A DNA stretch of 63,950 nucleotides, counting the filler, from Octopus bimaculoides (taxonomy: Eukaryota): NCBI RefSeq assembly GCF_001194135.2. It is 4 parts of 4 records of this genome, joined end to end, with 100 filler letters (N's around TTAATTAATTAA, not from the genome) between each part and the next. Parts side by side here need not be neighbours in the genome. Positions count along the whole stretch, not along the records: positions 1 to 18,563 come from NC_068985.1; positions 18,664 to 39,850 come from NC_068989.1; positions 39,951 to 61,935 come from NC_068993.1; positions 62,036 to 63,950 come from NC_068982.1. One strand, 5' to 3'. Under the pieces are notes generated by a model, which did no database searches, was not told where the DNA came from, and worked only from the letters and a program-made list of their open reading frames with translations. Each line of letters begins with the position of its first letter. The stretch's first letter is position 1. Of this stretch, positions 1,720-62,297 are shown one piece after another. The position numbers and the translations under genes were made by a program.

Positions 1720-1775
1720 CAGGGACCGGTTTCGAAATTAACAATCTTACCGACTGTCTGTTTCTCTTCAGCCTG
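1720..1775 (-). ncRNA. Type I minimal hammerhead ribozyme motif, intact
   Basis: Minus strand: CAGG-CUGAAGA-GAAA(loop)UUUC-GAAACCGGUC-CCUG. Stem I CAGG/CCUG, stem II GAAA/UUUC, palindromic stem III ACCGGU, GUC cleavage triplet. Confidence 0.85.
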
Positions 1776-1947
1776 ATCCGTAATACTTTAATCCCCTGAG
1801 ATTGCAGATATTGTTTCTGAATCTCGTTGCTTCTTTAAATGTGCTAGCTTCCTGATAATTAATCGATACTAATTAATATATGATTTTTTACCCTATGTTT
1901 TAATGTTTTAATATATATATATATATATATATAGATAGATAGATAGA

Positions 1948-2277
1948 TCTCCTTCGGTCATGAATGGCCATGGGATTGCATCTAGAAAGTTCCCCTCCTA
2001 GGCTCAAGTCCAGGCAATGTTGTTTATAAAAGACCAGCAGTCGCCCATGCAAGTCTCTCCCCTATCCACATCACCAATGTTATACAAAGGAAAGGCAAAG
2101 GCCGATAAAGCTTGGCACCAATGACTCGCAACTCAATTCTTTAGTTGAATTAATTGGAACAACGTGAGATAGAGTGTCTTGCTCAAGAACACAACACAGA
2201 ACATGGTCCAGGAATCAAACTCATTACTGCATGTTTGTAAGCTCGATACTCTAACAACTGAGCCATGCCCCTTCACA
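1948..2277 (-). mobile_element. tRNA-derived SINE (family C)
   Basis: Minus strand begins GTGAAGGGCATGGCTCAGTTGTTAGAGT (A-box-like) ... GAGTTTGATTCCTGG (B-box-like) ... TTGAGCAAGACACT, shared with other copies. Confidence 0.8.
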
Positions 2278-2289
2278 GGCACTCACACA

Positions 2290-2500
2290 TGTATATATAT
2301 ATATATATATATATATGTATATATGTATGTATATATATATATGTATATATATATGTATGTATGTATATATATATGTATCTATGTTTATATATATGTATAT
2401 ATGTATATATATATATATATATCTATATTCATATACATATATGTATGTATGAAAAGAGAGAGAGAGTGAGACATAGAGAGAGAGAGTTTGTGTGTGTGTG
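2290..2500. repeat. Compound (TA)n/(TATG)n/(AG)n/(TG)n microsatellite
   Basis: Seen directly. One of dozens of such tracts (e.g. 16903-17055, 32190-32430, 37735-37898, 47990-48130, 55845-56165, 59165-59298). Confidence 0.97.
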
Positions 2501-3045
2501 TATACGTGGTTAACAATATTTATGTATACCTGCACACGACATAAACTTAATGCTTTGATAGCAATAATGTGTTTGCAAAAAGACTTAAAACATTTAGTAA
2601 TGGGTATTGTATGAGACATAAATATCGACGATGTTGGCAAGGTTTATTTTAATTTCTAAATGTCCGGAAAATGTCCTTGCTTATAAAATATTATTTCTAC
2701 GATGGTAAAGTTTAAAGAACAAAGGATATTATTATACCTAAACTGGGATAGTAGTATTGATCTCTAATACTTTGCGACTGGTACATTGTAAGTCAATACC
2801 TCGTATTAGTCTAGAACAATAAATATCAATAATGAAGAGAGAAAGCGTAAATCATCTTACTAATATTGAATTAGGTGTCACCGCTTGGCACACAGGAAAG
2901 TTGTTATTAAGATCACAGTTTGCGCTCTCTCTTTCTCCCTGTATATATATACACACACAAAAAAAAGCACACACACACACACACAGAAACGGGATTCATG
3001 CTAGCCCTAAGGTAAAATCTTGTTTTGATTTCTATCTATAGGAAT

Positions 3046-3101
3046 ATTTCCCCTGACGAGGTGAATGGGTCCCTTAAGCGGTCCCGAACGCAATGGGGAA
3101 T
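3046..3101 (+). ncRNA. Degenerate hammerhead ribozyme motif
   Basis: ATTTCCC-CTGACGA-GG...CCC-GAAC-GCAAT-GGGGAAT. Core CUGACGA and a stem I are present, but GAAA has lost an A and stem III is broken. Confidence 0.45.
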
Positions 3102-3244
3102 TAACCAGTTATTTTCAAGTTGTGGATTCTATTTGCCATGTCACTCGAAGACATGAGTAATATAATGGCTTTATAGCGGTTTTGGCTGGTGTTCTTAACA
3201 TGTAAGGGTTTTTTTTTTGCCCCCTTAGATATGATTGTGACTTA

Positions 3245-3460
3245 CTCTTTTACTTGTTTCAGTCAATTGACTGCGGCCATGCTGGAGCACCGCCTTTAGT
3301 CGAGGAGCAAATCGACCCCAGGACTTATTCTTTGAAAGCCTAGTACTTATTCTATCGGTCTCTTTTGCCGAATCGCTAAGTTACGGGGACGTAAACACAC
3401 CAGTATCGGTTGTCAAGCGATGCTGGGGGGTACAAACTCAGACACGCAAACATAAACACA
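3245..3460 (-). mobile_element. SINE family B, 3' half (runs into gap)
   Basis: Reverse complement of the tail of the 40755-41170 copy (CTTGACAACCGAT...GTAACTTAGCG...AATAAGTCCTGGGGTCGATTTG...GAAACAAGTAAAAG). Confidence 0.9.
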
Positions 3461-58969: not shown

Positions 58970-60809
58970 GATTGTTTATGCAATCATGAAATGACCTACA
59001 CTGGTAAGAAGGGATGTATTGGCTGGACATGATAAACCAATGCACACAGTGTATGAACAGTTAGTTCGTAATTCGTGTGGCTGTATTTCGCCTCTTCCGT
59101 CTTTAATGTAATGGTTAAGATAGACGTTCAAATCTATTAAAGTCAAGTATTCTACATTATCCTTCTCTCTCTCTCTCTCTCTCTCTCTCTCTTTCTCTCT
59201 CTCTCTCACTCTCTCTCTCTCTCTCTCTCTCTCTCTCTCTCTCTCTCTCTCTCTCTCTCTCTCTCTCTCTCTCTCTCTCTCTCTCTCTCTCTCTCTCTGC
59301 TATCTATTGAACAATAAATTCTTTGAATGTATTCAATATCGAAGGAACTTCGTTTCAATTCGTGAATATATATGATTAGTATTGTTTACATTAACAACAC
59401 AGCAAAATAAATATCTTTACTGACATGTAGTAGGCGATTTATTGACAAATTAGTTGTCAGGCAAAGACGGAAAAAACACTCAGAGTATTAATTTAAAAGT
59501 GAAGGCATCTAATTGTCACTGAATACACAAAAGTTTACCATATTGAAACTTACCGAGAGAAGTGAACGAAAAATATTAAGATATTATTTTAAGAGTCAAA
59601 TAAGGGTGACAATTGAAATAAATACATTAAGAAAACCATGTTTAAAGCCGTCCACATTAAAAATTAAGTTGCATGCAGTTTGAAATAGTGGTAATTTATT
59701 TATTTACTAATTATTAAAAGACTGTTGCTTATAGAGAAAAAAGGAACAGTAAATCACTTGTTAATGGATACAAAACTGAATTACAGTAAAAGTGTATGCA
59801 AACTGAAATTGAGGAAGCATTTTGTTATAGAATGATGAGAGAATATTGACCATCTCGACAAGAATAATAAACCAAGAATGATTCAGGCTAGGAAAAAGAT
59901 TTTAGCTATTTACGAGAACAGCTACAAACAGTGTTAATTAGATGTAATTTTAGTAGGGTAGTAAAAACATTATTATTTCTGCCGTAGGAAACCAATAAAA
60001 ATATTTGTTTATTATCATACGGAGAGATACTGAACAGCAGCTAGTATATTATTATTATAAGCTGTACAATAAAGAAATGTATTTTAAAAAATATTAATAA
60101 TGTTAATTTTTAGAAAATCATTAGCAAAATCTAAAACGACATAACATGCACCGAAAAGAAGACGAGAATGGGTAACACAAAATTATCGAAGATAGCTGCA
60201 TGCCAAACTATCGCTCATTGGTTGAGTTGAAAATTAACCAATAAAACGCTATCACCACGCAAACGGCCACAGCTCCCTTACACTTTTATTCGCAAGCTAG
60301 GAATGTATTGTCAGACTCGCAGTAACATTCGACTATAACATCCTGTTGTCGGTCACTGCGTGCCTGACAGATATTACTATTGCTGCCAACATATGACCAC
60401 ATACGCCTTCGGTTACAAGTGGATGTGTCTGGGCTTGTGTGTGTGAAGGTGTGCGTTTATTTTGCAGTCTGTATCTGTCGGTCTCCATTTTCATTCTTTC
60501 TCACCCGCTCTCTCTCTCTCTCTCTCTCTCTCTCTCTCTCTCTCTCTCTCTCTCTCTCTCTCCCTCTGCCTTTCTCTCATTCTCTGGATGTGTTAATCTG
60601 AGTCTCTATCATAGACACCCTGAGACACAATTTTTCTATTTCTCTTTTTCTATGTGTATCTGCCTATCTATCTATCTATCATTCTACCTATCTGTCTGTC
60701 TGTCTATGTGTCTATTTACCTCATCTATGTATGTATGTATGTATGTATGTATGTATATTTTGAAGTATGCATGCGTGTGTGTGTGTGTGTGTGTGTGTGT
60801 GTGTGTGTA

Positions 60810-61745
60810 TGGGCGTCTGGATGAGATAGGACCGCTGATGGGAGAACATGTAGTGCTCTTCAAAGTAGTTCGTCCGCTTTGGTCCTTACCTGACACCTAG
60901 CTCTCACTTAAGCTCCTCGAAGCTGTCTGCATGCTGCTGCAGGAACACCTTGGACAACGGCTTCCACATGCCGGTTTAACCACGGTAAGGGCAGCCGAAG
61001 GCTTTCAACCCTCGATGAGTAACAGCTTGTCTATTTATGCATGTCAAGACTGGTTCCGGCTGACTTTGCGGTGGAAACCATGAGATTGATTCAACTGGCA
61101 GGAAGACAGACCAGGAAGCATTGTGAGGAGTGACGAACAAGGCACAGTGAGACATGAAGGATACTGCGGTCATCCACTGCAGCTTGACCTATCTCTAGTC
61201 ATCTTTTCGTCGTCCTGCCACTAGAATCTGATAGGAAGGGACCAGAGAGGCAGATGACGTTGCGTGAGTCAAGACATCACACCATCCCAGACCCACCTTC
61301 AAGTCCTTTGGCGAAGGGCAAATGCAAAGCAGTAAGTATGGTTGCACTGGAAGCTGTAGTCACAAATCTACGCGCAGGCGGCCTAGAATATGAGTCGCTC
61401 ACCACTGACCGAAGCAGCAGTGGCGTACGGGAGCACTCTGGATGTCTAAGAATTGCGCGCTCTGGAATTGCTCTGCTCTCCTCCATAGCTTGAAGAAGGG
61501 GCTACAAAATGTGCCCTAAATATAGCTCATTTCACCTCACCTTGGTCTGCATACTGCGGCAGGGAGGGGACCCCAACCGTACAGTCAAAATACCAAGACG
61601 AAAACATCTGTGACATCGTTCACTATCAACATATGGAATGTGTGAACGCTCATGAACAGCTCCAAAGTAAACAGACCGAGTGACGGACAGCACTTGTCAC
61701 AAGAGAGCTCGTCAGGACAAAATCCACATTGCAGTGTACTCGTCC
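60810..61745 (+). mobile_element. RTE-clade LINE 5' end (long 5' UTR plus start of APE domain)
   Basis: TINIWNV*TLMNSSKVNRP(E)*RTALVTRELVR..HIAV at ~61620-61745 matches the RTE APE N-terminus seen at ~44060-44170. The 5' boundary is approximate. Confidence 0.8.
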
Positions 61746-61754
61746 CAGCCGAAC

Positions 61755-61935
61755 CTTTGTTAAACAACTGGGTTTTCCATGTCGAGGTGGTACTGCGAAG
61801 AAAGAACCCGAATAAGACGGAACAAATAGATAATTTTAGGCCCATACCTCTGCTGAACGCAGATTATAAGATGTTAGCCAAGAGGTTGGCCAAGAGGTTG
61901 GCCAAGAGGTTGGCCAAGAGGTTGGCGCTCGTCGT
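61755..61935 (+). mobile_element. Tx1/L1-type RT fragment with a 12-bp tandem expansion
   Basis: VVLRRKNPNKTEQIDNFRPIPLLNADYKMLAKRL is the L1/Tx1 'NYRPISLLNxDYKILAKxLAxRL' motif; GCCAAGAGGTTG x4 at 61877-61924. Confidence 0.8.
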
Positions 61936-62035
61936 NNNNNNNNNNNNNNNNNNNNNNNNNNNNNNNNNNNNNNNNNNNNTTAATTAATTAANNNNNNNNN
62001 NNNNNNNNNNNNNNNNNNNNNNNNNNNNNNNNNNN

Positions 62036-62152
62036 CACTTTCAATACAGTAAACATAAGAGCACCACAGCAAACCACAGCACATACCCAAGGCGCACAGA
62101 GCTGCGCTCGGTAGTGAAGTGAAAGCACGTTATAAAAATAAAACTACTGAAT
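62036..62152 (+). mobile_element. R4/Dong-like 3' end followed by (AAT)n(AAC)n
   Basis: Nearly identical to the reverse complement of 39648-39770. Confidence 0.88.
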
Positions 62153-62251
62153 AATAATAATAATAATAATAATAATAATAATAATAATAAAAACAACAAC
62201 AACATCGAAAAATACCTTAGGAATGAGAACCCAAGTTTGAAATTTCCCCAA

Positions 62252-62297
62252 GACACCTGATGAAAGCTGGAGGGCATATCAGCCGAAACGTTGCGTT
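62252..62297 (+). ncRNA. Type I minimal hammerhead motif, slightly degenerate
   Basis: GACAC-CUGAUGA-AA-GCUG(GAGGGCAUAU)CAGC-C-GAAACGUU-GCGUU. Palindromic ACGU stem III, GUU triplet; one mismatch in stem I (62294) and one at the base of stem II (62265). Confidence 0.7.

What the first reader, a model, noticed from the sequence alone, without database searches (positions are those of the whole stretch)
1720..62297. High density of sequence-unrelated hammerhead ribozymes: five motifs plus one relic in 64 kb
A hand scan for CUGANGA...GAAA found type I hammerheads at 1720-1775(-), 46569-46639(-), 55392-55453(-), 56430-56471(+) and 62252-62297(+), and a relic at 3046-3101(+). The helices share no primary sequence yet all pair, so these look like several independent families. 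Minimal type I hammerheads with very short or palindromic helix III are known from Penelope-like element terminal repeats and metazoan retrozymes, where they are proposed to cleave as dimers. If this window is representative, the genome holds a very large and diverse self-cleaving RNA repertoire, possibly including non-autonomous retrozyme-like units (inference).
Basis: partly seen in the sequence, partly recalled or inferred. Interest (0 to 1): 0.78.

Follow-up and report, generated by a model that had tools for sequence, protein, structure and literature searches.

The report
Penelope retroelement tails carrying hammerhead ribozymes
Five self-cutting-RNA (hammerhead) motifs really are scattered through this stretch of animal DNA, and they are most likely the broken-off tail ends of several families of Penelope-type jumping genes, a known arrangement, although three of them share an unusual extra hairpin that may mark a little-described variant.

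Summary
Four motifs (1720-, 46569-, 55392-, 56430-) pass a strict type I hammerhead descriptor; 0 of 300 shuffles reach four. The fifth (62252) is a minimal hammerhead with two mismatches. The 'relic' (3046) cannot be told from chance. The two motifs laid against sequencing runs belong to multi-copy families shared with a second organism. The 55392 family is roughly thousands-fold over single-copy depth and shows a compensatory change in helix I. Its helix III and its position about 140 nt from a (TA)n run match Hydra-clade Penelope-like elements (PLEs), which carry a sense hammerhead behind the ORF in 20 of 32 related loci. A decayed Hydra PLE lies next door on the other strand. No tandem array, back-joint or pile of RNA ends at the cleavage site was seen, so 'retrozyme' is unsupported. 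Best reading: 5'-truncated 3' ends of several PLE families, probably mostly inert; the scan noted similar cases in other genomes. Unexplained: three sequence-unrelated motifs share a 4-bp helix II, a 3x3 internal loop ending UAA and an outer hairpin. Cleavage and genome-wide density are untested.

The parts
1720..1775 (-). H1: type I hammerhead; intact core, GUC triplet (predicted cut after 1724), helix I 4 bp, helix II 4 bp + CAG/UAA internal loop + 6-bp hairpin, helix III perfect 6-nt palindrome. Lies in a ~360-bp segment between (TA)n(GA)n at 1506-1546 and (AT)n at 1911-1932
   Evidence: fold z -1.74; family status not tested
46569..46639 (-). H2: type I hammerhead; intact core, GUA triplet (predicted cut after 46580), helix I 6 bp + 2x2 loop + 5 bp, helix II 4 bp + AAU/UAA internal loop + 7-bp hairpin; 159 nt upstream of (TA)n at 46382-46409
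   Evidence: fold z -2.88; family status not tested
55392..55453 (-). H3: type I hammerhead; intact core, AUA triplet (predicted cut after 55398), helix I 6 bp + 3x3 loop + 4 bp, helix II 4 bp + AAU/UAA internal loop + 5-bp hairpin, helix III 4 bp + 2-nt loop as in Hydra-clade PLEs
   Evidence: fold z -3.18; compensatory A-U to G-C at 55450/55395 in the family
55252..55607 (-). Member of a high-copy repeat family that carries H3; other copies continue past 55607, so this copy is cut short at its 5' side; its 3' end abuts the (TA)31 run
   Evidence: 542 contigs of run X1 and 216 of run X17 (organism C) laid
55187..55248 (.). (TA)31 microsatellite between the Hydra PLE remnant and the H3 unit; inferred shared insertion target
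52838..55062 (+). Decayed Hydra-clade Penelope-like element: RT, CxCX5C linker, GIY-YIG-type endonuclease end with CxxC and CxH, several stops and frameshifts; no hammerhead in the ~120 nt between its ORF end and the (TA)n
   Evidence: (profile E 2e-46); clade features from PMC8557442 section 11
56430..56471 (+). H4: compact type I hammerhead (Rfam RF00163 at 34.0 bits) with U4C, GUC triplet (predicted cut after 56467); within a multi-copy unit of about 56190-56500 that ends near (TATG)n at 56520-56547
   Evidence: 230 contigs X1, 159 contigs X16; G at 56451 in 89% and 84% of depth adds a fifth helix II pair
62252..62297 (+). H5: minimal (min-HHR-type) hammerhead with two A.C mismatches, GUU triplet (predicted cut after 62292); begins about 50 nt after the (AAT)n(AAC)n tail (62150-62203) of an unrelated non-LTR element
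   Evidence: (fits the published min-HHR consensus except G10.1); fold z +0.55; family status not tested by laying reads
3046..3101 (+).
   Evidence: 43 of 300 shuffles

Best explanation
The five motifs are most likely the hammerhead-bearing 3' ends of several different Penelope-like retroelement (PLE) families, left as short 5'-truncated insertions beside microsatellites, and most of these solitary copies are probably inert. In a full element the hammerhead lies in the 3' UTR / pseudo-LTR; in a read-through or tandem precursor RNA two copies would pair through their self-complementary helix III and cut the RNA to unit length (published model; inferred here). The element's RT and GIY-YIG endonuclease would then copy the RNA into (TA)n-type targets starting from its 3' end, and premature termination would leave only the last few hundred bases, which contain the ribozyme (inferred). 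H3 is likely of Hydra type; H5 is a min-HHR of the Penelope/Poseidon/Neptune type; H1, H2 and H4 are unassigned. Shown: the motifs, multi-copy status of H3 and H4, covariation in H3, adjacency to microsatellites. Not shown: any physical link of a motif to a PLE ORF, transcription of these loci, cleavage.
For: Motifs far above chance. H3 family: summed contig depth 41,544-118,916 at five hammerhead positions and up to 358,460 in bins, against 33-55 for single-locus contigs; present in organisms A and C; other copies run on past the 5' end. All 5 positions of the 62-nt H3 that differ in >=10% of X1 depth are a compensatory pair (84%/76% in X1, 14%/18% in X17), loop 3, N7 and 10.1. H4 family: depth climbs from about 600 at the 5' side to 15,569 at the hammerhead; organisms A and B. 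In relatives of the neighbouring PLE, 20 of 32 loci with >=400 nt behind the ORF have a sense hammerhead 90-321 nt downstream, 1 has an antisense one; helix III is 9-10 nt in all 20, as in H3 (10 nt). Published Hydra families have sense 3' hammerheads and (TA)n preference (PMC8557442, supplement part 2). H1, H2, H3 end 172, 159 and 143 nt before a microsatellite. Dispersed single motifs in several variable families are the published norm for PLE hammerheads (PMC4209133).
Against: No PLE coding sequence lies upstream of any motif on its own strand; the one PLE ORF is on the opposite strand to H3 and no joint links them. The helix II internal loop of H1-H3 is absent from 78 of 78 Hydra-related loci, and H1, H2, H4 have shorter helix III (6-8 nt) than those loci. 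Reviews describe PLE hammerheads as lacking loop-loop contacts (PMC7761336 passages), whereas H2 and H3 have the geometry for them, which is more typical of retrozymes. The 32 loci include near-duplicates and are not independent; 12 of 32 had no hit. The tool warns that summed contig depth is no copy number.
Confidence: 0.68

Rival explanations
1. [quoted passage not shown]
For: H1 sits in a ~360-bp segment between two (TA)n runs and the H3 unit is ~350 bp, within the published size range (PMC7229834 passages); H2 and H3 have canonical helix I/II lengths; a 13-nt direct repeat flanks H4 at 146-bp spacing; retrozyme families often include many monomers (bioRxiv 10.64898/2026.07.22.740005, parts 1-2).
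Against: No motif has a second copy in the window. No joint that goes back was listed in DNA contigs or RNA reads for H4 or H3; after the downstream 13-mer the H4 family continues with other letters than those that follow the upstream 13-mer (loose ends). RNA reads were few (19, 9 and 142 from about 6% of each run), on both strands, with no pile of ends at the cleavage site. Caveats: short unitigs and cDNA libraries can miss arrays and circles, and a unit longer than the stretch laid would show no back-joint.
Confidence: 0.2
2. H3 is the inverted 3' end of the adjacent Hydra element itself, so that ORF, (TA)n and hammerhead are one rearranged insertion.
For: The Hydra ORF remnant lacks its own hammerhead and ends about 120 nt before the (TA)31; H3 is Hydra-like and lies 330 nt beyond the ORF end; inverted PLE arrangements are common (PMC8557442 section 6).
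Against: The ORF is heavily disabled while the H3 unit is about 94% identical to its family majority (21 majority differences in about 345 nt, counted); the loose ends beyond 55598-55607 do not resemble the ORF's 3' flank by eye; published inversions sit at the 5' end.
Confidence: 0.07
3. One or more motifs are domesticated, single-locus ribozymes that process a host transcript.
For: H1-H3 keep intact cores and H2/H3 fold well; domesticated intronic type I hammerheads exist in amniotes (PMC6155905 passages).
Against: H3 and H4 are repeat-family members; no RNA read at >=99% identity to either locus; no host exon was recognised in the window.
Confidence: 0.03
4. The motifs are chance matches.
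For: Applies to R6 (43 of 300 shuffles); H5 alone does not fold better than shuffles.
Against: 0 of 300 shuffles reach 4 strict hits; covariation and multi-copy conservation for H3 and H4.
Confidence: 0.02

Closest known systems
Hammerheads of Hydra-clade Penelope-like elements (Craig et al. 2021, PMC8557442; includes a cephalopod family, Hydra-1_Obim)
   Same: Type I hammerhead near the 3' end, helix III of about 4 bp with a 1-2-nt loop, tolerance of a mismatch at 10.1-11.1, insertion next to (TA)n; a Hydra ORF remnant is in the window.
   Different: None of the five motifs matches the listed cephalopod family's hammerhead by eye; no listed Hydra motif and none of 78 related loci has the internal loop in helix II; no sense-strand ORF link is shown.
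Minimal hammerheads (min-HHR) of metazoan PLEs (Cervera and de la Pena 2014, PMC4209133)
   Same: H5 fits the consensus (extra nucleotide after A9, no loop 3, 4-5-bp helix I); thousands of dispersed single motifs in several variable families per genome.
   Different: H1-H4 have no extra nucleotide and do have a helix III; H5 has lost G10.1 and one helix I pair.
Non-LTR retrozymes of animals (Cervera and de la Pena 2020, PMC7229834; Li, Clavereau and Pollet 2026 preprint)
   Same: Canonical type I geometry (6-bp helix I, 4-bp helix II) in H2 and H3; AT-rich units of a few hundred bp; probable dependence on PLE enzymes.
   Different: No tandem arrangement, no circular junction and no abundant RNA seen.
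CChMVd (-) hammerhead with an internal loop 2 (Dufour et al. 2009, PMC2632901)
   Same: Loop 2 is an internal loop closed by a further hairpin; 3' A in loop 2 and 5' U in loop 1, the conserved tertiary pair.
   Different: That is a type III viroid motif with an apical loop 1 and an asymmetric 2:6 loop; here the loop is a symmetric 3x3 in a genomic type I motif whose loop 1 is also internal.

Membership tests
Type I hammerhead ribozyme | Core CUGANGA ... GAAA ... NUH | tested here: met
   Met by H1, H2, H3, H5; H4 has U4C, a natural variant reported to lower activity in vitro (PMC3088659 passage); not met by R6
Type I hammerhead ribozyme | Three helices around the core with helix I open | tested here: met
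   H1-H4; H5 only with two mismatches
Type I hammerhead ribozyme | Covariation among family copies | tested here: met
   H3: one compensatory pair in helix I whose two sides rise and fall together between organisms A and C (unphased). H4: one change that restores a pair. Not tested for H1, H2, H5
Type I hammerhead ribozyme | Self-cleavage after NUH | not testable with these tools
   No pile of RNA ends at the site in runs X21, X23 (H4) or X22 (H3), but depth was low and cDNA libraries do not preserve such ends well
3' end / pLTR of a Penelope-like element | Contiguous, same-strand link to an RT + GIY-YIG ORF | tested here: inconclusive
   No coding remnant upstream of any motif in the window, as expected for truncated copies; longer family members could not be read
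3' end / pLTR of a Penelope-like element | Dispersed multi-copy family with 5' truncation | tested here: met
   H3 and H4 only; H1, H2, H5 not tested
3' end / pLTR of a Penelope-like element | 3' end at a microsatellite target a short way behind the hammerhead | tested here: met
   H1 172 nt, H2 159 nt, H3 143 nt, H4 48 nt; none within 700 nt downstream of H5. Microsatellites are dense in this window, which weakens the test
Hydra clade (ORF remnant 52838-55062) | C-terminal endonuclease, CxCX5C linker, CxxC and CxH, DKT motif | tested here: met
   Remnant shows CxCX5C, CxxC, CxH; of 121 relatives 101 have DKT, 108 CxCX5-8C, 118 CxxC, 116 CxH; no tree was built
Non-LTR retrozyme | At least two consecutive hammerhead-bearing units in tandem | tested here: not met
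   None in the window; no back-joints for H3 or H4 in the runs laid; arrays elsewhere in the genome are not excluded
Non-LTR retrozyme | Abundant unit-length linear and circular RNA | tested here: inconclusive
   19, 9 and 142 reads in about 6% of three cDNA runs, both strands, no back-joints; library type may miss circles

The most novel reading that the evidence does not exclude
H1-H3 define an undescribed structural class of genomic type I hammerhead in which two internal loops dock (5' U of loop 1 with the 3' A of a UAA internal loop in helix II, capped by an extra hairpin), kept across at least three sequence-unrelated retroelement families; these are full-speed ribozymes, and with the other families they reach one per 15-50 kb, among the densest hammerhead repertoires known in an animal, so that many host pre-mRNAs carry a potential self-cleavage site.
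Probability: 0.22. Interest if true: 0.6.

Novelty: new member of a known kind. Interest (0 to 1): 0.33.

Why it matters
As PLE tail ends the motifs are ordinary: thousands of dispersed, variable hammerheads per animal genome are published (about 9,000 in Xenopus tropicalis and 4,000 in coelacanth, PMC4209133; about 5,000 in mussel and 126,247 in axolotl, PMC7229834). Two points would matter if they hold. First, the shared internal-loop helix II of three unrelated families offers a natural test of whether PLE-type hammerheads use tertiary contacts, which reviews say they lack. Second, the dominant H3 subfamily in organism A appears to have amplified with an A.C mismatch at 10.1-11.1 while related copies keep G-C, a natural pair for asking whether cleavage is needed for PLE spread, which is an open question (PMC8557442 passage).

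Tried and rejected
Whole-genome count: no genome held. Rfam: only H4 scored, at the threshold; the top rows are microsatellite artefacts matching miRNA families. The repeat finder was swamped by microsatellites; masked self-BLAST found no second copy of any motif. Exact patterns from H3 and H5 found 0 stretches in viral contigs. Run search for 62200-63870: no RNA holder listed. X16 (organism B) gave 0 contigs on the H3 stretch, which the tool says can be false. Earlier-finding look-ups by place and by sequence were blank. The tandem pair at 9103-9404 was checked as a possible missed retrozyme and rejected: it has CUGACGA but no GAAA. The idea that H5 is the 3' UTR of the neighbouring non-LTR element was rejected: two other 3' ends of that element at 39135-39850(-) end in (TAA)n without it. 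The idea that Hydra hammerheads are antisense to the ORF was rejected. Lunse et al. 2016 is not held; it and figures that I could not see may already describe helix II variants.
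Full report
Setting. The window is AT-rich (GC 0.24-0.44 per 2 kb), has 3,779 N in scaffold gaps and 112 tandem-repeat rows, mostly microsatellites. It carries LINE, SINE-like and PLE debris and no recognised host gene. DNA runs that hold it have 1.6-2.4 Gb of contigs. This looks like a large, microsatellite-rich invertebrate genome; 'cephalopod-like' is my inference from recall, no call establishes it and nothing below depends on it. 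No whole genome is held.

Observation. Local dinucleotide shuffles give a mean of 0.003 (strict) to 0.13 (loosest) and 0 of 300 reach four under any setting that found four. H5 parses as a minimal hammerhead with A.C mismatches at 10.1-11.1 and in helix I. H4 has U4C. The relic R6 ranks eighth, behind two other weak hits, and 43 of 300 shuffles contain a match to a descriptor tailored to it, so I do not count it. Rfam sees only H4, at 34.0 bits against 34, and nothing in gathering mode. Folding z-scores are -1.74, -2.88, -3.18, -0.54, +0.55 and -0.88 for H1-H5 and R6. Helix III is self-complementary in all five (6 of 6, 6 of 7, 8 of 10, 8 of 8 counting G.U, 4 of 4 positions), which fits a dimer mechanism.

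Are they repeat families? Only two stretches could be laid. H4 (56180-56518): 230 contigs of run X1 (organism A) and 159 of X16 (organism B); summed depth rises from about 600 upstream to about 2,000-2,500 and to 15,569 at the hammerhead, while a contig identical to the locus has depth 50.5. G at 56451 in 89% (X1) and 84% (X16) of depth adds a fifth helix II pair. Position 4 of the core could not be judged because the tool cut records at 56404-56435. H3 (55252-55612): 542 contigs of X1, 216 of X17 (organism C), 0 of X16; depth 41,544-118,916 at five hammerhead positions, up to 358,460 in bins, against 33-55 for single-locus contigs. The tool warns that summed depth is no copy number; I read it only as hundreds (H4) and thousands (H3) by order of magnitude. 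All 28 X1 differences at >=10% can be placed from the table, and five positions fall in the hammerhead: 55450 and 55395 change together from A-U to G-C (84% and 76% in X1; 14% and 18% in X17), loop 3 (55403) becomes U or C, which completes the palindrome, N7 becomes U, and G10.1 becomes A (96% X1, 45% X17) while its partner at 55412 has no listed change. The dominant subfamily in organism A therefore appears to have an A.C mismatch at the base of helix II (inferred from unphased counts). The outer hairpin and both UAA loop strands have no change at >=10% in X1. Other copies continue past 55607, so the window copy is 5'-truncated.

Expression. Raw RNA reads of organism A (about 6% of each run): 19 and 9 reads on H4 (X21, X23), none at >=95% identity; 142 on H3 (X22), 5 at 95-99%, none at >=99%, both orientations about equal. 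No place with many starts or ends, and no back-joint. The family is transcribed at a low level somewhere; these loci are not shown to be, and neither cleavage nor circles are seen. cDNA libraries may miss both.

What elements? A decayed PLE ORF lies at 52838-55062(+) (profile E 2e-46). It has the CxCX5C linker, CxxC and CxH, and its relatives have DKT (101 of 121), the features given for the Hydra clade (PMC8557442 section 11). I fetched 78 metagenome loci of this clade (the best 80 of 463 confirmed stretches). 43 of 78 have a sense hammerhead and 3 an antisense one. Of the 32 with >=400 nt after the ORF end, 20 have a sense motif 90-321 nt downstream and 1 an antisense one; position 10.1-11.1 is G-C in 10, U.U in 7, G.U in 3; helix III spans 9-10 nt in all 20 (some loci are near-duplicates). 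The published table agrees: sense 3' hammerheads, (TA)n targets, frequent U.U at 10.1-11.1 (supplement part 2). H3 has this helix III and ends 143 nt before (TA)31, so it is likely the tail of another Hydra-type family inserted tail-to-tail at the same microsatellite; the link to an ORF is not shown. H5 fits the published min-HHR consensus but for G10.1 (PMC4209133 supplement file 2 part 2). It follows the (TAA)n tail of an RT-bearing non-LTR element whose two other 3' ends in the window lack it. H1, H2 and H4 are unassigned.

The residue. H1, H2 and H3 share a 4-bp helix II, a 3x3 internal loop whose 3' strand is UAA (5' strand CAG, AAU, AAU) and a 5-7-bp outer hairpin, with no sequence likeness in the stems. 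H2 and H3 also have a 6-bp helix I followed by an internal loop that starts with U. A 5' U in loop 1 pairing with a 3' A in loop 2 is the tertiary contact conserved in most natural hammerheads, and an internal loop 2 is called unusual, known from the CChMVd (-) viroid motif (PMC2632901 passages). The architecture is in 0 of 78 Hydra-related loci and 0 of 165 pattern matches from viral and prokaryote collections. I did not find it described for animal type I motifs in searches, nor in the two tables read. Figures were not visible, supplement file 1 of PMC4209133 was not searched, and Lunse et al. 2016 is not held, so it may be in print. The descriptor was written after seeing the three motifs, and docking is a prediction.

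Density. Four per 60,171 called bases is one per 15 kb (95% interval 5.9-55 kb), or 43,000-400,000 per 2.37 Gb, if the window were typical. It was picked for richness, and the two measured families supply only thousands. Published totals run from about 4,000-9,000 (PMC4209133) to 126,247 (PMC7229834). The claim of a very large repertoire is neither shown nor excluded.

Papers seen. PMC8557442: passages, sections 6 and 11, supplement searches and parts 1, 2, 52. PMC4209133: parts 1-2 of 4 of the text, supplement search and file 2 part 2. bioRxiv 10.64898/2026.07.22.740005: parts 1-2 of 5. Passages only: PMC7229834, PMC6155905, PMC13282606 (no mention of ribozymes in its main text), PMC7936874, PMC2632901, PMC3088659, PMC7761336, PMC6765202. 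The labels RTE, R4/Dong, Tx1, SINE and MITE for neighbouring repeats are from recall, not from a call.

Verdict. Real hammerhead motifs, most likely tails of several PLE families: new members of a known kind. Interest 0.33, carried by the shared helix II architecture and the untested density.

Noticed in passing
window 39135-39850(-) and 62036-62190(+): Three 3' ends of one RT-bearing non-LTR element family (90-98% alike), each ending in (TAA)n; two are head-to-tail 462 bp apart. The C-terminal 88 aa match proteins with RVT_1 and PF13966; resembles R4/Dong elements (recalled label).
   Followed up: partly
window 43988-46026(+): Decayed LINE with endonuclease (Exo_endo_phos) and RVT_1 pieces, RTE-like by recall; its 3' part runs towards the (TA)n at 46250-46409 where the H2 unit ends on the other strand.
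   Followed up: no
window 9103-9404(+): Tandem pair of about 148 bp, 79% alike; both copies contain CUGACGA followed by a weak hairpin but no GAAA. Not a hammerhead.
   Followed up: yes
window 4-318, 5230-5446, 6799-7008, 8806-9020, 30991-31192, 38932-39067, 57121-57279, 63505-63683: About nine copies of one ~200-bp dispersed repeat (70-88% alike), SINE-like; a second dispersed family at 3241-3454, 14339-14870, 29833-29993, 40755-41163, 48734-49093, 63780-63891.
   Followed up: no
window 56593-56969: Imperfect palindrome of about 380 bp (67% self-complementary), MITE- or foldback-like, directly downstream of the H4 unit.
   Followed up: no
window 57900-58658(-) and 61646-61930(+): ORF1-like piece with a zf-CCHC knuckle and, 3 kb away on the other strand, an RT start interrupted by a 12-bp repeat in 4.9 copies.
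   Followed up: no
window 51454-51885: Imperfect tandem repeat of about 105-110 bp, roughly four copies, upstream of the Hydra remnant.
   Followed up: no
window 55998-56145: Two identical 79-bp copies on either side of an 11-N gap, probably an assembly overlap artefact.
   Followed up: no
L035 2675 and 2956 (-): Two identical canonical type I hammerheads 281 bp apart, antisense and just downstream of a Hydra-clade PLE in a marine metagenome contig: a retrozyme-like dimer inserted tail-to-tail with a PLE.
   Followed up: no
L052 2230 (+): A Hydra-locus hammerhead that also has C at core position 4, like H4, so U4C may be a family state in some lineages.
   Followed up: no
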